From assembly GCA_965655805.1 (NCBI GenBank), contig CBFHJN010000002.1, positions 3,143-67,142 on the forward strand: a DNA stretch of 64,000 bases, written 5' to 3'. This DNA comes from Flavobacteriaceae bacterium (lineage in GTDB: Bacteria > Bacteroidota > Bacteroidia > Flavobacteriales > Flavobacteriaceae). Every line of letters starts with the position of its first letter. The stretch's first letter is position 1. The position numbers were made by a program, and so were the translations under genes. Shown here in pieces: positions 1,582 through 18,766 of the stretch. Under the pieces are notes generated by a model that worked only from the letters and a program-made list of their open reading frames with translations, did no database searches and was not told where the DNA came from.

Positions 1582-1589
1582 TACTTTTG
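1582..1589 (+). promoter_or_regulatory. Bacteroidota sigma-70 -7 element (TACTTTTG) for the metal-efflux operon
   Basis: Exact TAnnTTTG match 6 nt upstream of ATG 1596. The track TTG start at 1587 lies inside this motif. Confidence 0.65.
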
Positions 1590-1595
1590 TTAAGT

Positions 1596-1985
1596 ATGCA
1601 AAAACTAGTTGCCATATCATTCTCATTTTTGATACTTTTTCAAAGCTTAAATATTAGCTTTGAAGATTTTTCGCGTTTTGGTGTGCTTTTAGATCATGCC
1701 GAATACCATCAGGAACAATATGGCGATTCGTTTTTGGAGTTTATTACAGAACACTATGGCGATAGTACATATCACCCAATGAGTGAACATAAAGAACATG
1801 AAGATTTACCCTTTAAAGAACACCACCAAGCTTGTGCGCACAGCACAGTTGTATTCACTTTAGCGGTTCAAGACTATCTTATTACTTACGAACCTTTTGT
1901 AGAAATACCTGTTAATTTTCATTACACAGATTCTATATCCTTATTTGAAAAACCTACCGTTTTTCAACCACCCAAACACGCATAA
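1596..1985 (+). CDS. Small His-rich exported or membrane-anchored protein heading the efflux operon
   Basis: Hydrophobic N-terminus, then HAEYH, EHY and HPMSEHKEHEDLPFKEHH. First gene after the promoter. Confidence 0.7.
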   Translation: MQKLVAISFSFLILFQSLNISFEDFSRFGVLLDHAEYHQEQYGDSFLEFITEHYGDSTYHPMSEHKEHEDLPFKEHHQACAHSTVVFTLAVQDYLITYEPFVEIPVNFHYTDSISLFEKPTVFQPPKHA

Positions 1986-2056: not shown

Positions 2057-5000
2057 ATGTTAGAAAAAATCATAAAATTCAGTTTAAAAAATAAACTGAT
2101 TATTTTATTAGGCGCACTGGCCATTGTTGGTTTTGGTGTGGTTTCCCTAACCCAAATATCTATTGGAGCTGTTCCAGATATTACCAATAATCAAGTACAA
2201 GTAATTACGACATCTCGAAATTTGGCAACTCAAGACGTAGAGCAATTTATAACCTATCCCGTAGAGCTAGAAATGGCTAATTTACCTGGTGTTCAGGAAA
2301 TTCGTTCGGTTTCTAAATTCGGACTTTCGGTGGTTACCATCGTTTTTGATGACGATTTAGGCACTTACTTACCGCGTCAACTCATTGCGGAAAAAATTAA
2401 ATCGGCTTCCGAAAAAATCCCAGAAGGTTTTGGAACGCCAGAAATGGGACCTATAACCACAGGTTTGGGTGAAATTTACCAATATATACTGGATGTTAAA
2501 CCCGAATACAAAGACCGCTATACCATTACGGATTTACGCACCATTCAAGATTGGGTTGTCAAACGTCAATTATCAGGAATTCCTGGAGTCGTTGAAGTCA
2601 ATACTTGGGGCGGATTTTTAAAGCAATATGAAGTTGCCATCAATCCGCAGAAACTGACAGCCATGAACATATCAATTTCAACCATTTATGAAGCACTCGA
2701 AAAGAACAATAGTGTTGCTGGTGGTGGCTATATTGAAAAAACGGACAAGGCCTATTTTATTCGTGGTGAAGGTTTGGTAACATCATTAAAAGACATTGAA
2801 AATATTGTTGTAAAAAATGATGGCACACCAATTTACGTTAAAGATGTAGCAACTGTTGGCTTTGGTCATGCTACCAGATTTGGAGCCATTACGGGAAATG
2901 GGGAAGGAGAAAAAGTGCTTGGCCAAATTATGATGCTGAAAGGTGGCAACTCTAAAAAAATAATTGATGCTGTAAAAGAACGCGTTGCAAGCATTCAAAA
3001 AACACTACCTGAGGGTGTTTATATCAATGGCTTTTTAGAACGAAGCGAACTGATTAATAAAACCACGTTTACCGTTGCTGAAAACCTCATCCTAGGCTCA
3101 CTCATCGTGATTTTTGTAGTGGTTTTACTACTCGGAAATTGGCGTTCTGGATTAGTCGTCGCATCGGTTATTCCTTTAAGTTTACTTTTTGCAATTTCTT
3201 TAATGAATGTTTTTGGTGTCGATGCCAATTTAATGAGTTTAGGTGCTATTGATTTCGGAATTATTATTGATGGAGCCGTTATTATCGTGGAGTTTATAGC
3301 CTTTCAAATTACGGCTCAAAGCGCCAAATTGAAGACTATTTCCAAAGAAGTTATTGATAGCATCACCTTGAAAAGTGCTTCAAAAATGATGAATTCGGCC
3401 ATTTTCGGGCAACTTATTATTCTCATTGTTTTCATACCAATTCTATCATTAAGTGGAATTGAGGGCAAAATGTTTAAACCTATGGCCATGACATTTAGCT
3501 TTGCATTGATTGGCGCCATGATATTGTGTTTAACCTATGTACCTGTCGTGTCTGCGTTGTTTCTAAAACCGTCTAGCCAATCGCCTAAAAACATATCTGT
3601 TAAACTTATGAATCGCTTAACATCTTGGTATGCACCGATTATCAATTGGGCTTTACACAGTAAACGACTCGTTACTGGTTCTGCTTTGGCACTACTTATT
3701 ATTAGTGGTTTCATTTTTAATAATATGGGTGGCGAATTTGTACCTACTTTAGATGAAGGTGATTTTGTAATTCAACCAGTTTTAAAAACAGGAACTTCAT
3801 TAGGAAAGACTATTGAAATCACGACGAAAATTGAACGTATTCTGCTAGAAAATTTTCCAGAAGTTGATCAAGTTGTAAGCAGAATTGGTGCTGCTGAAGT
3901 TCCAACAGATCCCATGTCCATGGAAGAAAGTGATGTTATTATAAAACTGAAACCTAAAAACACATGGGTTTCTGCCAATAGCAAAGATGAACTGGCTGAA
4001 AAGTTTAAAGAGGCTTTAACTATTATTCCAAACATGGAAATAGAATTTACCCAACCTATCGAAATGCGTTTTAACGAACTGATTACAGGTGTTCGTGCCG
4101 ATGTGGCCATTAAAATTTTCGGTGAAGATTTATCCATTCTTTCGAACAAAGCTGAACAAATAAAAGCTGCTATTAGCGATGTAGAAGGCGCCTCTGATAT
4201 TGTAGTTGAAAAAGTAGAAGGCCTCCCGCAAATGAGCGTTAATTATAATCGTTTTAAAATTGCACGTTACGGATTGAATATTTCTGATTTAAATCGTGTG
4301 ATTTCCATGGGATTTGCAGGTGATGTGGTTGGACAGGTTTTTGAAGGTGAAAAACGCTTCGATTTAGCCATTAGACTCGACGATAAAAACCGAAAAAACA
4401 TCACCAATTTACAAAATCTATATGTAGACGTTCCTAGTGGTGGAAAAATTCCATTAAGCGAATTAGCAGATATATCTTACACCACAGGTCCTGCACAAAT
4501 TTCAAGAGACGATACCAAAAGACGAATTGTAATTGGCGTAAACGTCAGGAATCGAGATTTACAATCCGTTGTAACTGATATCCAAAAACGCGTTAACAAA
4601 AATATTCAACTCCCTGTTGGGTATAGCATTACTTATGGTGGCCAATTTGAGAACCTACAAAGCGCTAAAGACCGTTTATTAGTAGCAGTTCCAATAGCCC
4701 TCGTTCTTATTTTTATACTCCTTTATTTTGCTTTTAATTCGGTAAAAGATGCCTTAATGGTTTATTCTGCCATTCCATTAGCTGCAGTTGGAGGTGTTTT
4801 ATTGCTGTGGATTCGCGATTTACCCTTTAGCATTTCCGCAGGCGTCGGCTTTATAGCCCTCTTTGGTATTGCGGTATTAAATGGAATTGTTCTTATTGAA
4901 CATTTTAAGGAACTTAAATCTGAAGGTGTTACCGATATTGAAACACGCATTAAGCGTGGTACTACAGAGCGGCTAAGACCTGTTTTATTGACGGCTTCTG

Positions 5001-6361
5001 CTGCTGCTCTGGGATTTTTACCTATGGCCATTTCAACAAATGCTGGAGCTGAAGTGCAACGTCCTTTAGCAACCGTTGTTATTGGTGGACTCGTTACAGC
5101 TACCATTTTAACACTGGTTGTACTTCCTGTTTTATATGCTTGGATTGAAGAAAAGAAAACACTAAAAATGAAGAAAAATCAGATTACAACAATCATAATC
5201 CTGTTCATGTCTTTGACTGGATTCTCACAGCAAAAACCCATGGATGTAAATGAAACATTTCAGTTAGCGTTAACTAATAATGCTAAAATAAAAGCATCTG
5301 GTTTACAACTCGATGAATTTGATGCTAGAATTTCAAGTGCTTTCGATTTCGATAAAACATCTATTTATTACAGCTATGACGAAAATAATTTAGCTATCAA
5401 TAACGAGCCACTGAACATTTTCGGAGTCTCCCAAGACTTTATATTCCCAACGCGTTATTTTGCTGAAAAGCGCGTAAATCAAGCAGCTTACCAATTAAAA
5501 GCGTCGGAAAACGAAATTCAAGTTTTACAACTCAAACGCGATGTATATTCTAATTATTACGCCTTAAGTTATGCTAAAAACACAGCAAAAGCCTATCAAT
5601 ATTTAGATAGTTTATATTCCAAATTTGCTCAAAATGCCAAACGACGATTTGAGTTAGGCGAAAGTAATTATTTGGAAATGATAACGGCAGAGTCAAAAGA
5701 AAAACAAATGGAAACGCGTTTTACGCAAGCGCAGCAGGCTGTATTCATTCAAACGGAGCAATTAAAGAAATTGGTTCAAATTGATTCGCTTGACACAACC
5801 AACGGACCTTTAGAAAAATTGACATTAACAGCTTTATCCGTTTCTGAAGAAAATCCGGGTTTGCTCTATTTTGAAGAATCAAAAAATTATTATCAAGCCT
5901 TAAAAAACAAAGAAAAACAGGCCTTGTTACCTGACATTTCAGCTGAATATTTTGTTGGCTCCAATAGCACGTTAAATACCAATATCCAAGGCTATCAATT
6001 AGGATTGAAAATCCCGTTATTTTTCTCTGGAAACGCAGCACGCATTAAAGCATCCAAAATTGCTGAAGATGTAGTAAACATGCAACAAACAGATTATAAA
6101 ACCAAATTGCATGGCGAATATCAACGGCTTTTAGCTCAATTAGAACAGCATCAAGCCGCAATTTCCTATTATGAAACCCAAGGAAATATGCTTCAAAAGG
6201 AAATTATAAAAACGGCAAATCGCTCGTTTCAAGAAGGAGAAATAGATTTTTTCCAATACATACAAAGCGTAGAAACCGCAAAAGATATGGAGCTGGAATA
6301 CCTGAAACAATTAAACGACTATAACCAAACGATTATCTCAATAAATCATTTAACTTTATAA
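2057..6361 (+). CDS. czcA: CusA/CzcA-family heavy-metal RND transporter fused to a C-terminal TolC-like outer-membrane factor
   Basis: About 1037-aa RND part with GAVPDITNNQVQ, GAIDFGIIIDGAVIIVE (CzcA-type DFG-D-E relay), RLRPVLLTA and EVQRPLATVVIGGL, followed by an about 377-aa helical OEP/TolC-like domain. Confidence 0.93.
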   Translation: MLEKIIKFSLKNKLIILLGALAIVGFGVVSLTQISIGAVPDITNNQVQVITTSRNLATQDVEQFITYPVELEMANLPGVQEIRSVSKFGLSVVTIVFDDDLGTYLPRQLIAEKIKSASEKIPEGFGTPEMGPITTGLGEIYQYILDVKPEYKDRYTITDLRTIQDWVVKRQLSGIPGVVEVNTWGGFLKQYEVAINPQKLTAMNISISTIYEALEKNNSVAGGGYIEKTDKAYFIRGEGLVTSLKDIENIVVKNDGTPIYVKDVATVGFGHATRFGAITGNGEGEKVLGQIMMLKGGNSKKIIDAVKERVASIQKTLPEGVYINGFLERSELINKTTFTVAENLILGSLIVIFVVVLLLGNWRSGLVVASVIPLSLLFAISLMNVFGVDANLMSLGAIDFGIIIDGAVIIVEFIAFQITAQSAKLKTISKEVIDSITLKSASKMMNSAIFGQLIILIVFIPILSLSGIEGKMFKPMAMTFSFALIGAMILCLTYVPVVSALFLKPSSQSPKNISVKLMNRLTSWYAPIINWALHSKRLVTGSALALLIISGFIFNNMGGEFVPTLDEGDFVIQPVLKTGTSLGKTIEITTKIERILLENFPEVDQVVSRIGAAEVPTDPMSMEESDVIIKLKPKNTWVSANSKDELAEKFKEALTIIPNMEIEFTQPIEMRFNELITGVRADVAIKIFGEDLSILSNKAEQIKAAISDVEGASDIVVEKVEGLPQMSVNYNRFKIARYGLNISDLNRVISMGFAGDVVGQVFEGEKRFDLAIRLDDKNRKNITNLQNLYVDVPSGGKIPLSELADISYTTGPAQISRDDTKRRIVIGVNVRNRDLQSVVTDIQKRVNKNIQLPVGYSITYGGQFENLQSAKDRLLVAVPIALVLIFILLYFAFNSVKDALMVYSAIPLAAVGGVLLLWIRDLPFSISAGVGFIALFGIAVLNGIVLIEHFKELKSEGVTDIETRIKRGTTERLRPVLLTASAAALGFLPMAISTNAGAEVQRPLATVVIGGLVTATILTLVVLPVLYAWIEEKKTLKMKKNQITTIIILFMSLTGFSQQKPMDVNETFQLALTNNAKIKASGLQLDEFDARISSAFDFDKTSIYYSYDENNLAINNEPLNIFGVSQDFIFPTRYFAEKRVNQAAYQLKASENEIQVLQLKRDVYSNYYALSYAKNTAKAYQYLDSLYSKFAQNAKRRFELGESNYLEMITAESKEKQMETRFTQAQQAVFIQTEQLKKLVQIDSLDTTNGPLEKLTLTALSVSEENPGLLYFEESKNYYQALKNKEKQALLPDISAEYFVGSNSTLNTNIQGYQLGLKIPLFFSGNAARIKASKIAEDVVNMQQTDYKTKLHGEYQRLLAQLEQHQAAISYYETQGNMLQKEIIKTANRSFQEGEIDFFQYIQSVETAKDMELEYLKQLNDYNQTIISINHLTL

Positions 6362-6372
6362 TATTAAACAGC

Positions 6373-7518
6373 ATGAAACCACTATATATATTTACATTTT
6401 TATCACTTTTCATGGCTTGTGGAAATTCCGAATCCGATTCGGCAGCAAGTATCGAAACTGATTCTCACGATGACGAAATTAGTTTATCGAAGGCGCAATT
6501 TACCAGCGAAGACATAGCTTTAGGGAACATCTCAAAACATACGTTTAATGAAACCGTAACGGTTAACGGTATGATTGATGTTCCACCACATAACAAATCG
6601 CGCGTTACCACGTATATGGCTGGTTACATTACCAAAACACCATTATTAGTTGGCGAGCAAGTTAAAAAAGGACAACTTTTAGTCACTTTAGAAAACACAG
6701 AATACATTGAACTACAACAACAATTTTTAGAAGTTTCGGAACAATTAAACTATTTAAAAAATGAATACACACGTCAGAAAACACTTTTTGATGAAAAAAT
6801 AACGTCTGAAAAAAACTATTTAAAAGCGGAAAGCACGTATAAAAGTAATTTGGCATTTTACAATGGCTTGGAGAAAAAACTGCAAATGCTAAACATCAAT
6901 CCAAAATCAGTTTTATCAGGAAATATGACTTCCACTATAAATATTTATGCACCAATTGATGGTCATATTACCAAAGTAAATGTCAGCAATGGTGTTTATG
7001 TTTCAGCAAGTGATGAAATTATGGAAATTGTAGATATAGACCATATGCATTTGGAACTTTCGGTTTTTGAAAAAGATATCATGAGGATTAAAAAAGGACA
7101 AAAAATCACCTTTACCATTCCGGAAGCTTCGCAAAAAACCTTTAACGCAGATGTACATTTAGTCGGTACGACTATAAATGAAAATACGAGACGTGTTCAA
7201 GTTCATGGACATATTGAGAATGTAGAAGACAATTTTATAGTTGGTATGTTTGTAGAAGCACAAATAAAGATTGACGAAGTTAAAGGCATGGCATTACCAA
7301 ACCAAGCGGTTATTGCAGTTGGAGATGATCATTTTATTTTGGTTTTAGAGGAACAGACTGCAGAAGGTTATGTGTTTCGTAAAACGAAAGTTGAAATCGG
7401 CAAACAAACGGAAGATTACACAGAAATAGTGAACGCTAAAAATTTATTAAATAAAGATATTATAATAAAAGGAACCACCATGCTTCTTAACGAAGGCGAA
7501 GGTGGTCATGGCCATTAA
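6373..7518 (+). CDS. czcB: RND efflux periplasmic adaptor (CzcB/CusB family), lipoprotein
   Basis: Lipobox FMAC, hairpin and lipoyl segments (APIDGHITKVNVSNG), GMFVEAQI, C-terminal GGHGH. Starts 11 nt after czcA. Confidence 0.9.
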   Translation: MKPLYIFTFLSLFMACGNSESDSAASIETDSHDDEISLSKAQFTSEDIALGNISKHTFNETVTVNGMIDVPPHNKSRVTTYMAGYITKTPLLVGEQVKKGQLLVTLENTEYIELQQQFLEVSEQLNYLKNEYTRQKTLFDEKITSEKNYLKAESTYKSNLAFYNGLEKKLQMLNINPKSVLSGNMTSTINIYAPIDGHITKVNVSNGVYVSASDEIMEIVDIDHMHLELSVFEKDIMRIKKGQKITFTIPEASQKTFNADVHLVGTTINENTRRVQVHGHIENVEDNFIVGMFVEAQIKIDEVKGMALPNQAVIAVGDDHFILVLEEQTAEGYVFRKTKVEIGKQTEDYTEIVNAKNLLNKDIIIKGTTMLLNEGEGGHGH

Positions 7519-7528
7519 AAAGTTTTGC

Positions 7529-9487
7529 ATGTCTAATAATCACAAACATTCTCAAGGTATTTTTGGTAAACGCACAGAGTTATATTTTTCGCTGCTTTGC
7601 GGGTTTTTCCTTGTACTAGGTTTTGGTTTAGAAAAATGGGGAAATCTGGAATCCTATTTTCATTTAACGAGCTATATTATTTCATATGGTTTTGGTGGGT
7701 ATTTTATTACTCAAGAAGCTATTCATAAAGTTGGAAAAGGCTTATTTGAAATCGATTTTCTCATGATTGCAGCTGCTATTGGTGCAGCATATATTGGCAG
7801 TTGGGCTGAAGGTTCGCTTTTATTATTCTTATTTAGTTTAGGACATGCTTTGGAACATTATGCCATGAACAAGGCGAAAAAATCTATTAAAGCTTTAGGG
7901 AATTTATCGCCAAAAACAGCCTTACTAAAAACGGGAAATTCAACCACAGAAATAGCCATTGAAGATTTAAAAATTGGCGATATTATTGTGGTAAAACCGC
8001 ATACTAAAATAGCAGCCGATGGTGTAATTATATCCGGTGAGAGCAGTATTAATCAGGCTCCAATTACAGGTGAAAGTATGCCGATTGATAAACGACCGTT
8101 CCCAGAAAACAAACTTATTCCCGATTTTGCAGACATAGATAAAGAACATATTGCTTTTTCGGGAACCATAAATGGCGATAGTGCATTAGAAATTCACGTC
8201 CTTAAATTAACCCAAGATTCTACAGTTTCTAGATTAATCAAGTTGGTTAATGATGTGGAAACTCAAAAATCACCAACCCAACGATTGACCAAAAAATTTG
8301 AAAAAGCTTATGTACCAATAGTGATTATATTGGTTACTCTTTTATGCTTTGCGTTTTTGGTTATTAACGAGTCTTTTGATGCCAGTTTATATCGTGCCAT
8401 TACTGTTTTAGTGGCAGCAAGCCCTTGTGCTTTGGCAATTTCCACACCAAGTGCGGTTTTGAGCGGCATTGCACGTGCTGCCCAACGTGGTGTTTTAATT
8501 AAAGGCGGAAAAGCTTTGGAAGATTTAGGCAGTATAACCACCATAGCGTTTGATAAAACAGGTACACTTACTGAAGGAAAACCAAGTTTGAAACAAGTTT
8601 TACCGCTTAATGATTTCAATAGACTGGAATTATTACAATTGTTATTTGAAGTGGAAAGCTTAAGCAATCATCCGTTGGCTAAAGCCATTGCTAAAGCCAT
8701 TCAAGAACAAGAACAATTGGTTGATGAAAATCTCGCATCAAACGTAAGCGCTATTCAAGGTAAAGGTGTTGCAGCGGTTTATAAGAATGAAACCGTTTAC
8801 ATTGGGAATCAAAGGTTGATGACGGATAATAATTTAGTTATTTCTAAAGCTATTGATAATCAATTCAATCGCCTTTTAGAAGGTGGTGAAACGGTTATGT
8901 TGGTTGGTTATCGAAATCAGATTATTGGCTTGGTTAGCGTTATGGATATCCCAAGAAAAACAGCTGCTGAAACACTCAAAAAATTAAAAAATATTGGTGT
9001 TAAACATATGATTATGCTCACTGGCGATCATGAGCAAGTTGGTCAAGCTATTGCAAAACAAATTGGCTTAACCGAAAGTCGCGGAAACTTGTTACCTGAA
9101 GATAAAGTAGATGCCATCCGATTATTAAAAGAACGCGATGGAAAAGTTGCTATGGTTGGCGATGGTGTTAACGATGCACCAGCTATGGCCTTAAGTACGG
9201 TAAGTGTTGCCATGGGAGCAGCAGGAAGCGATGTAGCTTTAGAAACAGCTGATGTAGCACTCATGTCTGATAAAATAGACATGTTACCATTTGTAATTGG
9301 GTTAAGTCGTGCCTCCAAACGGATTATTAAACAAAATATTGTTGTCAGTTTGGGTGTGGTTGCCATTTTGGTTCCTGTCACTATTTTAGGGTTGACCAAT
9401 ATAGGTTTGGCGGTTTTATTTCATGAAGGATCGACTATTGTGGTTGTCATAAATGCTTTGCGATTGTTGGGTTTTAAGGAGGATTAG
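7529..9487 (+). CDS. Heavy-metal P1B-type ATPase, P1B-4 subtype (Co/Zn/Cd/Fe class)
   Basis: TGES, SPC in AASPCAL, DKTGTLT, HP, GDGVND and HEGST. No CxxC N-terminal domain. ATG 7529 preferred over the overlapping GTG 7502. Confidence 0.92.
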   Translation: MSNNHKHSQGIFGKRTELYFSLLCGFFLVLGFGLEKWGNLESYFHLTSYIISYGFGGYFITQEAIHKVGKGLFEIDFLMIAAAIGAAYIGSWAEGSLLLFLFSLGHALEHYAMNKAKKSIKALGNLSPKTALLKTGNSTTEIAIEDLKIGDIIVVKPHTKIAADGVIISGESSINQAPITGESMPIDKRPFPENKLIPDFADIDKEHIAFSGTINGDSALEIHVLKLTQDSTVSRLIKLVNDVETQKSPTQRLTKKFEKAYVPIVIILVTLLCFAFLVINESFDASLYRAITVLVAASPCALAISTPSAVLSGIARAAQRGVLIKGGKALEDLGSITTIAFDKTGTLTEGKPSLKQVLPLNDFNRLELLQLLFEVESLSNHPLAKAIAKAIQEQEQLVDENLASNVSAIQGKGVAAVYKNETVYIGNQRLMTDNNLVISKAIDNQFNRLLEGGETVMLVGYRNQIIGLVSVMDIPRKTAAETLKKLKNIGVKHMIMLTGDHEQVGQAIAKQIGLTESRGNLLPEDKVDAIRLLKERDGKVAMVGDGVNDAPAMALSTVSVAMGAAGSDVALETADVALMSDKIDMLPFVIGLSRASKRIIKQNIVVSLGVVAILVPVTILGLTNIGLAVLFHEGSTIVVVINALRLLGFKED

Positions 9488-16636: not shown

Positions 16637-18766
16637 ATGAAATTAATAAGATTATTAGTACTTTTCCTTGTTTTTCAGGCATCAGCGCAACAAGGTGGCA
16701 TGTGGATTCCTTCACTTTTAGAAGGTATGAATGAAGCCGAAATGACTGCTTTGGGCAGTAAATTATCTGCAAAAGACATTTATGATGTTAATAACTCCAG
16801 CCTTAAAGATGCCATTGGGCATTTTAATGGTGGTTGCACCAGTGAAGTGATTTCTGACAAAGGATTAATTCTTACCAATCACCACTGTGGGTTTGGTGAA
16901 ATCCAATCGCATTCATCTCTAGAAAATGATTATTTAAAAGATGGCTTTTGGGCTATGAAATTAGAAGATGAATTACCTAACGACGGTCTTTATATTGAAT
17001 TTATTGTACGTATTGAAGACGTAACAACACAGGCATTAGCTGGAGTTACAGAAGATATGACAGAGCGCGAAAAGCAATCTACTATAGATAAAAACACAAA
17101 CACGCTTCAAACTCAAGTAACCAAAGAAGCTTGGCAAGACACTAAAGTCAAATCGTTTTTTAAAGGGAATCAGTATTTCTTATTTGTAACCGAACGTTTT
17201 GAGGATATTCGTTTAGTAGGTGCGCCTCCAACCAGTATTGGGAAATTTGGAAGCGATACCGATAATTGGGTTTTCCCAAGACATACAGGCGATTTTTCTA
17301 TGTTTCGTATTTATGCAAATAAAGATAACAAGCCAGCAAAATATAGTAAAGATAATGTGCCATATAAACCAAAACATCACTTACCAATTTCTTTAGATGG
17401 TGTTGAGGAAGGCGATTTTACCATGGTTTTTGGTTTCCCAGGAACAACCGATGAATACTTACCAGCTGTAGCTATTGAGCATATTACTCAAGAATTCAAC
17501 CCAAGCAATATTGCCATTCGTGAAGCAGCTTTAAAGGTCATTGATGCCGAAATGAAGGTGAATGATGATGTACGTATTAAATACGCCTCAAAACAAGCGC
17601 GAATTGCGAACGCTTGGAAAAAATGGATTGGCGAAAATTTAGGTATTAAAAAAAGTAATGCGGTTGAAAAACGTCGTGAGTTTGAAGCCACATTTACCAA
17701 AGCCCTAAAAGAAAAAGGATTGGAAGACAAATACGGTCATATTCTACCAGATTTTGACAAGCTATATAAAGATTTTGCCGAAGTCAACATTAAACGTCGA
17801 AACTTTATTGAAGTCTTTTTGGTAACTAATGAACTGATGACGATGACGTTTAGAGCCTATCAAGTAGAGCAAGCTTTACAGCGTGATCCTGAAAGTTTGG
17901 ATAAAAATCGAGCTTATATTACAGGTGTTTTAGAGGGTATTCATAAAGATTATAGCGTAAAAGTAGATCGCGGTGTTTTTGAAAACGTGATGCCATTTTA
18001 CAGTAAAAATAATGTTGATCCAACCATTTATGATAAAACAGCTTTTACTGATTTAGATTCAGCTTTAGCCTTATTTGAAGGATCTGCTGAAGATGTGATT
18101 AAAAAACTAAATAACGATGCCGCTTATAGCTATGCGAAACCGTTTATTGTCGATTTCTACACAAATTTAAATCCAGAATTTCAACAAAAAAATGATCCGA
18201 TTACGGCACTTCAAACAGAATATATGACAGCGCTTATGAAAGCCTTACCAAACGAACGCTACTTTCCAGATGCTAACGGAACCTTACGTGTTACTTATGG
18301 ACAGGTTAATGGGTATTCACCTAGAGATGCTGTGTATTACAATCCAGTAAGTTATTTAGATGGTGTCATTGAAAAGTACATTCCAGGTGATTACGAGTTT
18401 GATGTCCCTCAAAAATTAATCGACCTATACGACGCTAAAGACTATGGTCAGTATGCAGATGCGAATGGAAAAGTACCAGTTTGCTTTTTAGGAACCAACC
18501 ACACAACTGGTGGTAATTCTGGAAGTCCTGCTATTGATGCACACGGAAATTTAGTCGGTTTAAATTTTGATCGTGTTTGGGAAGGTACCATGAGCGATAT
18601 GAATTACGACCCAGAAATCTGTAGAAATATCATGGTCGATTTACGCTACGTATTGTTCATCGTAGATAAATACGCAGGTGCTTCACACTTGATTGACGAA
18701 ATGACTTTGGTACATCCTAAAAGTGGAAAAAGCAAATCAAAAAATAAGAAGAAAGTTAAGAACTAA
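16637..18766 (+). CDS. dpp11: S46-family dipeptidyl peptidase, DPP11-like (Asp/Glu-specific)
   Basis: Signal peptide QASA/QQ, GGMW, TNHHC, DFSMFR, TTGGNSGSP, and FDR (Arg at the S1 site, where DPP7 has Gly). Confidence 0.85.
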   Translation: MKLIRLLVLFLVFQASAQQGGMWIPSLLEGMNEAEMTALGSKLSAKDIYDVNNSSLKDAIGHFNGGCTSEVISDKGLILTNHHCGFGEIQSHSSLENDYLKDGFWAMKLEDELPNDGLYIEFIVRIEDVTTQALAGVTEDMTEREKQSTIDKNTNTLQTQVTKEAWQDTKVKSFFKGNQYFLFVTERFEDIRLVGAPPTSIGKFGSDTDNWVFPRHTGDFSMFRIYANKDNKPAKYSKDNVPYKPKHHLPISLDGVEEGDFTMVFGFPGTTDEYLPAVAIEHITQEFNPSNIAIREAALKVIDAEMKVNDDVRIKYASKQARIANAWKKWIGENLGIKKSNAVEKRREFEATFTKALKEKGLEDKYGHILPDFDKLYKDFAEVNIKRRNFIEVFLVTNELMTMTFRAYQVEQALQRDPESLDKNRAYITGVLEGIHKDYSVKVDRGVFENVMPFYSKNNVDPTIYDKTAFTDLDSALALFEGSAEDVIKKLNNDAAYSYAKPFIVDFYTNLNPEFQQKNDPITALQTEYMTALMKALPNERYFPDANGTLRVTYGQVNGYSPRDAVYYNPVSYLDGVIEKYIPGDYEFDVPQKLIDLYDAKDYGQYADANGKVPVCFLGTNHTTGGNSGSPAIDAHGNLVGLNFDRVWEGTMSDMNYDPEICRNIMVDLRYVLFIVDKYAGASHLIDEMTLVHPKSGKSKSKNKKKVKN

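What the first reader, a model, noticed from the sequence alone, without database searches (positions are those of the whole stretch)
5150..5240. Complete Gln-rule signal peptide buried at the CzcA-TolC fusion junction
Seen: after a full-length RND (about 1037 aa), the ORF reads ...EEKKTLK-MKKNQITTIIILFMSLTGFS/QQ. This has a Met at 5168 in an A-rich context, a basic n-region, a hydrophobic h-region, and a G-F-S cleavage site followed by Gln at 5228. Six other secreted proteins in this window have the same /Q pattern. Known: an outer-membrane channel cannot easily stay tethered to an inner-membrane RND, and Bacteroidota signal peptidase I products often start with Gln. Inference: the fusion is a polyprotein that signal peptidase cuts to release the TolC domain at 1:1 stoichiometry, or the TolC part is translated from the internal ATG. 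Such fusions are common in Bacteroidota annotations, but I know of no demonstration of this mechanism.
Basis: partly seen in the sequence, partly recalled or inferred. Interest (0 to 1): 0.62.

Follow-up and report, generated by a model that had tools for sequence, protein, structure and literature searches.

The report
Metal pump and exit-channel polyprotein
One gene of this marine Bizionia encodes an inner-membrane metal-efflux pump followed by its outer-membrane exit channel, joined by the channel's own export signal, so the cell most likely makes one chain and cuts it in two, a design common across Bacteroidota for which I found no published study.

Summary
ORF 2057-6361 (1434 aa) is a full CzcA-type RND pump. 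It is followed in frame by K-M(5168)-KKNQ, an 11-residue hydrophobic core, TGFS|Q(5228), and a 377-aa channel that folds like TolC.

The junction is a real, conserved signal peptide. Of 136 distinct fused junctions from across Bacteroidota, 134 keep a Lys/Arg-rich linker, a hydrophobic core and a small residue followed by Gln. Residue -1 is A, S, G or T, and -3 is small or aliphatic.

The Met is not conserved. Only 50 of 134 junctions have an ATG in the linker, and 55 of 134 have no ATG, GTG or TTG. Close orthologues carry CTC, ATT, TTT or CTA at that codon. A second fused paralogue in this same genome has no usable start.

Stand-alone homologues begin exactly at this segment, and one relative has an in-frame TAG just before it.

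Internal initiation at 5168 may add to this here but cannot be the general mechanism. Nothing has been shown biochemically, and I found no paper on it.

The parts
2057..6361 (+). Single ORF, 1434 aa: CzcA-type RND pump + internal signal peptide + TolC-like outer-membrane factor (158.9 kDa precursor)
2057..5146 (+). RND (HME/CzcA) pump proper, residues 1-1030. The last helix, TM12, is about residues 1003-1031 (nt 5063-5149)
   Evidence: Pfam ACR_tran 5-1030 and TIGR00914 1-1041. TM12 aligns to ZneA 985-1022. AF2 helix 3-31 of the model that starts at residue 1001
5147..5182 (+). Cytoplasmic linker, equivalent to the signal-peptide n-region: EEKKTLKMKKNQ (residues 1031-1042), net positive
   Evidence: The K/R-rich linker is conserved, with a mean of 3.8 K+R in the 12 residues before the core across 134 junctions
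5168..5170 (+). Internal ATG (Met1038) in an A-rich context. It is the relic or optional start codon of the former stand-alone OMF gene
   Evidence: Met in 97 of 112 close homologues but an ATG in only 50 of 134 junctions phylum-wide. Stand-alone homologues start here
5183..5215 (+). h-region ITTIIILFMSL (residues 1043-1053): in-to-out helix, a 13th TM segment of the precursor
   Evidence: AF2 helix 40-55 of the model
5216..5230 (+). c-region TGFS (-3 Gly, -1 Ser) and +1 Gln1058: predicted signal peptidase I site between nt 5227 and 5228, obeying the Bacteroidetes Q-rule
   Evidence: Gln is present in 112 of 112 close homologues and at the predicted +1 position in 134 of 136 junctions (site defined as the first [ASGT]-Q after the hydrophobic core)
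5228..6358 (+). Mature outer-membrane factor, 377 aa, 43.5 kDa: 4 beta-strands plus long helical hairpins in two repeats
   Evidence: Pfam OEP with two stretches. AF2 mean pLDDT 88.4. Foldseek best hits are TolC, TOprJ1, SilC, CmeC and CusC, E 5e-17 to 6e-16, TM 0.65-0.69
6373..7518 (+). Periplasmic adaptor (CzcB-like MFP) with a lipoprotein-type N-terminus (…LFMAC)
   Evidence: Pfam HlyD_D23 and TIGR01730
7502..9487 (+). P-type (E1-E2) ATPase, overlapping the end of the adaptor gene. It fits a metal-export context
   Evidence: Pfam PF00122 and PF00702

Best explanation
The gene encodes a two-membrane polyprotein.

1. The ribosome makes one 159-kDa chain.
2. The CzcA part inserts into the inner membrane with its 12 helices, and its C-terminus ends in the cytoplasm.
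3. The Lys-rich linker stays inside. The following 11-residue hydrophobic core inserts in-to-out, like a 13th helix, and starts Sec translocation of the TolC-like part into the periplasm.
4. Signal peptidase I cuts after Gly-Phe-Ser1057.
5. The released 43.5-kDa channel begins with Gln1058. The genome's glutaminyl cyclase converts this to pyroglutamate, and the channel then goes to the outer membrane by the usual chaperone/BAM route.
6. The pump keeps the uncleaved signal peptide as a C-terminal extra helix (115.5 kDa).

The result is one channel protomer per pump protomer, matching the 3:3 stoichiometry of a tripartite pump. The adaptor comes from the next gene.

Shown here: the fusion, its domains and fold, the conservation of every signal-peptide feature, and the non-conservation of the start codon. 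Inferred: membrane topology, the cut itself, pyroGlu formation, and outer-membrane insertion.
For: 1. Anatomy. A full RND is followed by a full OMF in one frame. The OMF part has a TolC/CusC/SilC fold.

2. Junction conservation. There are 136 distinct fused junctions from family-wide and phylum-wide genome searches. Of these, 134 have a K/R-rich linker, a hydrophobic core and [A100/S20/G8/T6]-Q. Residue -3 is A, G, V, I, S, L, M or T. The uncharged span has a median of 18 residues, which is signal-peptide-like. In alignment A1, Gln1058 is the only position of at least 90% conservation between TM12 and the mature domain.

3. Start codon not required. ATG occurs in the linker in only 50 of 134 junctions, and 55 of 134 have none of ATG, GTG or TTG. 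Orthologues of 56-59% identity carry CTC, ATT, TTT or CTA in place of ATG. The second fused paralogue in this same genome (G000:C1, L066) has no ATG; its only GTG is the first codon of the hydrophobic core.

4. Homology to a true signal peptide. Stand-alone OMF homologues of about 397-405 aa start exactly at this segment with MKK…A|Q. Of 48 such proteins, 40 have [ASGT]Q. L135 is a split relative with …KK-TAG-AE-ATG-KTK…FG|Q in the same frame.

5. Machinery and rule. The genome has LepB and a plant-type glutaminyl cyclase, PF05096. Six ordinary signal peptides in the window end in |Q. The Q-rule is published (PMC5837995, PMC10653852). Mass spectrometry shows a pyroGlu N-terminus at the A|Q site of a stand-alone Tannerella OM efflux protein, Tanf_07615.

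6. Geometry. Only about 6 residues separate the cut site from the first helix of the OMF fold. From published AcrAB-TolC structures (5NG5 is among the hits), I infer that this helix sits about 100 Å from the inner membrane in an assembled pump. An uncut chain therefore could not assemble.
Against: - No biochemical evidence exists for any member: no western blot, N-terminal sequence or fractionation was found.
- In this gene and its close clade the Met is kept in 97 of 112 sequences. The ATG sits in an A-rich context of the kind I recall favouring initiation in Bacteroidota, so some internal initiation cannot be excluded.
- No signal-peptide predictor such as SignalP was available, so site calling rests on my own heuristic.
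- Sequences share ancestry, so the 134 of 136 are not independent trials, although they fall into about 76 clusters below 50% identity.
- Gln is also kept in fused genes assigned to Ignavibacteria and Chlorobiota MAGs, lineages where the Q-rule may not hold. The Gln might therefore have another role, or these genes were transferred.
Confidence: 0.7

Rival explanations
1. Internal translation initiation. Ribosomes start at ATG 5168 inside the long ORF and make an ordinary pre-OMF of 397 aa (45.7 kDa) with an N-terminal signal peptide. The full-length read-through product is minor or non-functional.
For: Met1038 sits exactly where stand-alone homologues start. The context is very A-rich (AAAACACTAAAAATG). 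Met is kept in 97 of 112 close homologues.
Against: ATG is absent from the linker in 84 of 134 fused junctions, and no ATG, GTG or TTG occurs in 55 of 134. Orthologues carry CTC, ATT, TTT or CTA at this codon. The paralogue in the same genome lacks a usable start. The A-richness is explained by Lys codons of the positive linker. No Bacteroidota -7 promoter motif (TAnnTTTG) lies within 1.6 kb upstream. This reading also does not explain why the stop codon is absent in well over a hundred genomes.
Confidence: 0.13
2. Permanent tether. The hydrophobic segment is an uncleaved 13th transmembrane helix and the TolC-like domain stays covalently attached to the pump.
For: The ORF is continuous. AF2 models the segment as a helix. 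Uncleaved signal-anchors exist in other proteins.
Against: A plain anchor gives no reason to conserve -3/-1 small residues and +1 Gln in 134 of 136 junctions. The uncharged span (median 18) is short for a stable anchor. Only about 6 residues link the site to the OMF fold, far too few to reach the outer membrane (plus known pump geometry). The domain keeps all four beta-strands of an outer-membrane barrel protomer.
Confidence: 0.07
3. Cutting occurs, but by a protease other than signal peptidase I, for example a periplasmic or intramembrane protease, or at a different site.
For: Nothing in the sequence identifies the enzyme directly.
Against: The conserved features are exactly the signal peptidase I (-3, -1) rule plus the Bacteroidetes +1 Gln. 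They are the same as in N-terminal signal peptides of stand-alone homologues.
Confidence: 0.07
4. Artefact or decay: a lost stop codon from a sequencing error or a recent mutation, producing a meaningless fusion.
For: A single base separates the fused and split forms (L135 has an in-frame TAG).
Against: Stop-free frames of 1429-1523 aa occur in about 90 of 151 Flavobacteriaceae genomes and in many other families. Named lineages include Prevotella, Pedobacter, Algoriphagus, Saprospiraceae and Ignavibacteria. 112 full-length protein homologues were found.
Confidence: 0.01

Closest known systems
CzcCBA / CusCBA / ZneCAB heavy-metal (HME) RND tripartite efflux systems of Proteobacteria
   Same: It has the same three parts: an HME-type RND pump (TIGR00914; TM12 aligns to ZneA, PDB 4K0E), a TolC/CusC-fold outer-membrane factor, and a CzcB-like adaptor. 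It sits in a metal-export gene context beside a P-type ATPase.
   Different: Pump and channel are one ORF in the order RND-OMF-MFP, not three genes in the order C-B-A. The channel's signal peptide is internal. The OMF is short (377 aa mature) and too diverged for a sequence hit in the PDB. It is not a lipoprotein, unlike CusC.
Bacteroidetes Q-rule signal peptides (Sec / signal peptidase I substrates with +1 Gln cyclised by glutaminyl cyclase; PMC5837995, PMC10653852)
   Same: It has a positive n-region, a short h-region, small -3/-1 residues and +1 Gln. The genome encodes LepB and a plant-type cyclase. A stand-alone Tannerella OM efflux protein has an MS-verified pyroGlu start.
   Different: The signal lies about 1040 residues into the chain, behind a 12-helix membrane protein. 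After cutting it would stay attached to the upstream protein instead of being degraded.
Bradyrhizobium japonicum FbcH cytochrome b-c1 precursor (recalled from memory: Thöny-Meyer et al., PNAS 1991; not retrievable in the paper library)
   Same: A polytopic inner-membrane protein is fused to an exported partner through an internal signal peptide. The precursor is split into two subunits of one complex at fixed 1:1 stoichiometry.
   Different: There both products stay at the inner membrane. Here the released part must cross the periplasm and insert into the outer membrane as a beta-barrel trimer. The protein families are unrelated.
Stand-alone OMF genes next to czcA in other Bacteroidota (for example split relative L135, and 48 stand-alone representatives)
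   Same: They have an orthologous OMF domain, and the same signal peptide lies at the same distance from the conserved ...LA(I/L)ENN motif.
   Different: A stop codon and a start codon separate the two genes. Here the stop is absent.

Membership tests
HME-RND pump (CusA/CzcA, TIGR00914; Pfam ACR_tran) | Full-length match above the curated cut-off | tested here: met
   TIGR00914 scores 1172.6 bits against a cut-off of 701.45, residues 1-1041. ACR_tran covers profile positions 1-1020 of 1021.
HME-RND pump (CusA/CzcA, TIGR00914; Pfam ACR_tran) | 12 TM helices with a cytoplasmic C-terminus; proton-relay and metal-binding residues | not tested
   Topology is inferred from full-length homology to ZneA and CusA. 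Individual residues were not examined.
Outer-membrane factor (TolC/OEP, PF02321) | Two OEP repeats | tested here: met
   PF02321 scores 78.6 bits against a cut-off of 22, with two stretches from residue 1065.
Outer-membrane factor (TolC/OEP, PF02321) | TolC fold: 4 beta-strands plus long alpha-hairpins per protomer | tested here: met
   AF2 mean pLDDT 88.4, with strands at 102-108, 119-128, 293-302 and 310-318 and helices up to 69 residues long. Foldseek hits to TolC, SilC, CusC, CmeC and OprM at E down to 5e-17, TM 0.65-0.69.
Outer-membrane factor (TolC/OEP, PF02321) | Trimeric channel located in the outer membrane | not testable with these tools
   Needs cell fractionation or a solved structure.
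Sec / signal peptidase I signal peptide obeying the Bacteroidetes Q-rule | Positive n-region, 7-15 residue h-region, small residues at -3 and -1, Gln at +1 | tested here: met
   KKTLKMKKNQ / ITTIIILFMSL / T-G-F-S | Q. Conserved in 134 of 136 junctions.
Sec / signal peptidase I signal peptide obeying the Bacteroidetes Q-rule | Located at the N-terminus of the translated precursor | tested here: not met
   It begins at residue 1038 of 1434, and most homologues have no start codon in front of it. It is therefore an internal signal peptide, which works like one but is not a classical N-terminal one.
Sec / signal peptidase I signal peptide obeying the Bacteroidetes Q-rule | Signal peptidase I and glutaminyl cyclase present in the organism | tested here: met
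   TIGR02227 hit at G000:C86. PF05096 hit at 305.9 bits at G000:C62.
Sec / signal peptidase I signal peptide obeying the Bacteroidetes Q-rule | Cleavage and a pyroGlu N-terminus observed | not testable with these tools
   No proteomic record was found for any fused member.
Bacterial membrane polyprotein split at an internal signal peptide (FbcH type) | Signal-peptide features are conserved independently of any start codon | tested here: met
   55 of 134 junctions have no ATG, GTG or TTG in the linker, yet keep the cleavage motif.
Bacterial membrane polyprotein split at an internal signal peptide (FbcH type) | Two separate polypeptides detected from one ORF | not testable with these tools
   Needs a western blot or mass spectrometry.

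The most novel reading that the evidence does not exclude
Across Bacteroidota, an outer-membrane beta-barrel channel may be routinely and obligatorily made as the C-terminal part of its own polytopic inner-membrane pump. It would be threaded through Sec co-translationally behind 12 helices and released by signal peptidase I at an internal Q-rule site. The spent signal peptide would stay on the pump as a permanent 13th helix. This would be a natural polyprotein whose two products go to two different membranes. It might also be a way to fix 1:1 stoichiometry in a phylum that I recall initiates translation poorly at internal cistrons.
Probability: 0.55. Interest if true: 0.7.

Novelty: new variant of a known kind. 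Interest (0 to 1): 0.56.

Why it matters
Tripartite efflux pumps are textbook three-gene machines. The large 2021 Chem Rev review of them (PMC8277102), in the first 300,000 characters that are held, mentions no pump-channel fusion.

If the fused form is a cleaved precursor, three things follow:
- It is a natural example of one ORF supplying both membranes of a diderm cell.
- It raises the question of how an outer-membrane protein is handed from co-translational insertion of an inner-membrane protein to the chaperone/BAM route.
- It predicts RND pumps with a 13th helix of unknown role.

There is also a practical side. Thousands of database entries are labelled only "CusA/CzcA". This hides an outer-membrane channel, including in genomes labelled Prevotella and Bacteroidaceae, and it distorts counts of OMF genes. 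The hypothesis can be tested with one tagged construct.

Tried and rejected
1. Sequencing or annotation artefact: rejected because of stop-free frames in many genomes.

2. Internal promoter: no TAnnTTTG motif between 3496 and 5168.

3. Codon test for alternative starts. The hypothesis was that Leu, Val or Ile replacing Met would be TTG or GTG. In the loci with DNA they are CTC, CTA, ATT or TTT.

4. Lineage covariation test. The hypothesis was that non-Q-rule lineages would lack the +1 Gln. It was inconclusive: the Ignavibacteria and Chlorobiota MAG copies still have S|Q, G|Q or T|Q, possibly through gene transfer.

5. Sequence search of the OMF part against the PDB found only the RND tail matching ZneA. 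A fold search was needed instead.

6. Literature. Six full-text searches on the fusion itself or on processing at internal signal peptides, plus a term search inside the held part of the Chem Rev review, found no paper on RND-OMF fusions (one search looked for the FbcH precedent). The FbcH paper is not in the library.

7. Proteomic supplements of the two Q-rule papers hold no fused CzcA entry. One odd entry, Tanf_07885, whose signal peptide could not be predicted, does not look like an OMF.

8. RNA-seq was not pursued, because co-transcription of a single ORF would not separate the hypotheses.
Full report
**1. The observation**

The window holds one open frame, 2057..6361 on the + strand, of 1434 codons. 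Residues 5-1030 match Pfam ACR_tran over the whole profile. Residues 1-1041 match TIGR00914, the CusA/CzcA heavy-metal RND family, at 1172.6 bits against a cut-off of 701. From residue 1065 there are two stretches of Pfam OEP, the TolC family.

The junction reads …LPVLYAWIEEKKTLK-M-KKNQ-ITTIIILFMSL-TGFS-QQKPMDVNETFQLALTNN…. Met1038 is at nt 5168 and Gln1058 at nt 5228. Every coordinate in the finding is right. So are its mass estimates: 158.9 kDa for the full chain and 43.5 kDa from Gln1058.

A heuristic scan of the window finds six ordinary N-terminal signal peptides ending [ASG]|Q, at 16637+, 19570+, 31148-, 51113+, 63358- and 63501+.

**2. Surroundings**

- Downstream lies a CzcB-like periplasmic adaptor with a lipoprotein-type start (6373-7518).
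- Overlapping its end is a P-type ATPase (7502-9487).
- Upstream is a small His-rich ORF with no Pfam match (1587-1985).

This is a metal-export cluster.

**3. The channel part is a complete outer-membrane factor**

A sequence search of residues 1000-1434 against the PDB found only ZneA, matching the TM12 tail. The OMF part is therefore diverged.

An AlphaFold2 model built on 55 homologues has mean pLDDT 88.4. It shows TM12 (model residues 3-31), a second helix over the hydrophobic junction segment (40-55), and then the two-repeat OMF protomer with four beta-strands and helices up to 69 residues long. Foldseek places it with TolC, TOprJ1, SilC, CmeC, CusC and OprM, at E 5e-17 to 1e-15 and TM 0.65-0.69.

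**4. The fusion is real and widespread**

- All 112 full-length protein homologues at 61% identity or above in the queried region (residues 980-1434) are fused.
- A six-frame search of 151 Flavobacteriaceae genomes gave stop-free frames of about 1435-1515 aa spanning the junction in about 90 genomes, often with two or three paralogues each.
- The same search over 401 genomes of the phylum listed about 150 further fused frames from many families.
- Named records include Flavobacterium, Maribacter, Algoriphagus, Pedobacter, Mucilaginibacter, Dyadobacter, Saprospiraceae, Prevotella, Bacteroidaceae, Porphyromonadaceae, Marinilabiliales, Ignavibacteria and a Chlorobiota MAG.
- This genome carries a second fused paralogue on contig C1, with a 1472-aa frame.

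An artefact is excluded.

**5. The junction is a conserved signal peptide**

I collected 136 distinct junction sequences with their DNA. In 134 of them a K/R-rich linker (mean 3.8 K+R in the 12 residues before the core) is followed by a hydrophobic core and then [A 100 / S 20 / G 8 / T 6]-Q. Position -3 is A, G, V, I, S, L, M or T in all but five cases. One of the two misses, L046, has TA|Q just outside my search window. Only L127 truly lacks the Gln.

The same test with other polar residues after a small residue gives 13-45 of 136. The uncharged span from the last linker charge to the site has a median of 18 residues. That is the size of a signal-peptide h+c region, not of a stable anchor.

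In alignment A1, Gln1058 is the only position conserved at 90% or more between TM12 and the mature domain. Among the 112 close homologues the Gln is invariant and -1 is always A or S. The 134 junctions fall into about 76 clusters below 50% identity, so this is not one inherited accident.

**6. The segment is homologous to a real N-terminal signal peptide**

An exhaustive profile-free search of 1.8 billion representatives with residues 1000-1434 returned 150 best hits. Seventy carry RND TM12 upstream, so they are fused or fragments of fused genes. Forty-eight are stand-alone OMFs of about 370-425 aa.

Several stand-alone proteins align from their first residue to Met1038. They begin MKK…, then a hydrophobic core, then A|Q, at the same distance from the …LA(I/L)ENN motif. 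Forty of the 48 have [ASGT]Q in the expected place.

One relative, L135, is a split form in the same reading frame: …KTFTKK-TAG-AE-ATG-KTKIIL…FG|QNTK. One base therefore separates the fused and split states.

**7. Polyprotein or internal start?**

If the channel were made from the internal ATG, a start codon should be conserved. It is not.

- Only 50 of 134 junctions have an ATG anywhere in the linker, 79 have ATG, GTG or TTG, and 55 have none.
- Among orthologues of 56-59% identity to this OMF region, the Met codon is CTC (L010), ATT (L011), TTT (L013) or CTA (L014), or the position is gone (L016, 52% identity).
- The second fused paralogue in this very genome has no ATG. Its only GTG is the first codon of the hydrophobic core, which would leave no n-region.
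- No Bacteroidota -7 promoter motif lies between 3496 and 5168.

Within the close clade the Met is kept in 97 of 112 sequences. That is no better than the neighbouring Lys residues (110 and 111 of 112). The A-rich context follows from Lys codons.

So the family as a whole must be made as a precursor. For this gene, internal initiation may add some product but is not needed.

**8. Why the chain must be cut**

A simple anchor gives no reason to keep the (-3, -1) rule and +1 Gln. Only about six residues lie between the site and the first helix of the OMF fold. In assembled pumps of the AcrAB-TolC type (for example 5NG5, among the hits), that part of the channel lies, by established structural knowledge, roughly 100 Å from the inner membrane.

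The organism has LepB and a plant-type glutaminyl cyclase. The Q-rule is documented (PMC5837995, PMC10653852). For a stand-alone Tannerella OM efflux protein, the pyroGlu N-terminus at A|Q has been seen by mass spectrometry.

**9. Mechanism proposed, and what is inferred**

1. One chain is translated.
2. The RND part inserts with its C-terminus in the cytoplasm (inferred from family topology).
3. The positive linker stays inside and the h-region inserts in-to-out, starting translocation of the OMF part.
4. Signal peptidase I cuts after Ser1057.
5. Gln1058 is cyclised.
6. The 43.5-kDa channel follows the normal route to the outer membrane.
7. The pump keeps a 13th helix (115.5 kDa).

The gain is a fixed 1:1 supply of pump and channel protomers. 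All steps after translation are inferred.

**10. Comparison with what is known**

The parts are those of CzcCBA, CusCBA and ZneCAB systems. The architecture (RND::OMF then MFP) and the internal signal peptide are not described in the literature I could search.

The nearest mechanistic precedent I recall is the Bradyrhizobium FbcH cytochrome b-c1 precursor. That paper is not in the library, so this comparison rests on memory.

The scan's own notebook holds 46 notes on the same fusion in other genomes, with the same reading. These are not independent evidence. I re-derived the case here and added three things of my own: the start-codon census, the paralogue without a start, and the in-frame split relative.

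**11. Verdict**

This is a new variant of a known kind of system: widespread, mislabelled in databases as "CzcA" only, unstudied, and testable with one tagged construct.

Noticed in passing
G000:C1:119543-121506 (locus L066): This genome has a second fused CzcA-OMF paralogue with a 1472-aa frame. Its junction (…RKEKKNNGGDASYVKKSATVVVVLLSLGGFLTPNSASA|QDG) has a longer linker and no ATG. The same cell must therefore handle at least one precursor without any internal start.
   Followed up: partly
window 1587-1985 (+): A small His-rich ORF (132 aa from TTG, or 129 aa from the ATG at 1596; motifs HAEYH, HKEHE, KEHH) with a hydrophobic N-terminus lies directly upstream of the pump gene and has no Pfam or NCBIfam match. 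It could be a periplasmic metal-binding accessory protein.
   Followed up: no
window 7502-9487 (+): A P-type ATPase ORF of 661 aa starts with GTG and overlaps the adaptor gene by 17 nt. It suggests an operon that combines cytoplasmic and periplasmic metal export.
   Followed up: no
locus L135 (G277:C1:649412-651459): A split relative: the RND ends …KTFTKK, then an in-frame TAG, two codons, and the ATG of the OMF signal peptide. It shows that a single base change converts the split form into the fused form.
   Followed up: yes
locus L127 (G195:C1:9717-11728): The only fused junction among 136 without a small-residue/Gln site (…LLLLIPFFPLKSEILTADK…). It has a Met in the linker and may be cut at LKS|E or started internally.
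   Followed up: no
loci L159, L169, L173: Fused genes in Melioribacteraceae, Chlorobiota and Ignavibacteriaceae MAGs keep +1 Gln (G|Q, T|Q, S|Q), although the Q-rule was reported as specific to Bacteroidetes. This points either to horizontal transfer or to a wider reach of the rule.
   Followed up: partly
locus L180 (Aquiflexum gelatinilyticum, NZ_JANAEZ010000010.1): Here the RND frame ends in a stop just after TM12 and the OMF match continues in another frame, since the match length is not a multiple of three. This is a split or frameshifted version.
   Followed up: no
PMC5837995, supplementary file 3: Tannerella Tanf_07885 has an MS-verified pyroGlu N-terminus preceded by a signal-like segment (…RNIRFTLSALVLFFMPFSSRLIA/Q) whose start the authors could not predict. 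It may be another internal or mis-started signal peptide.
   Followed up: no
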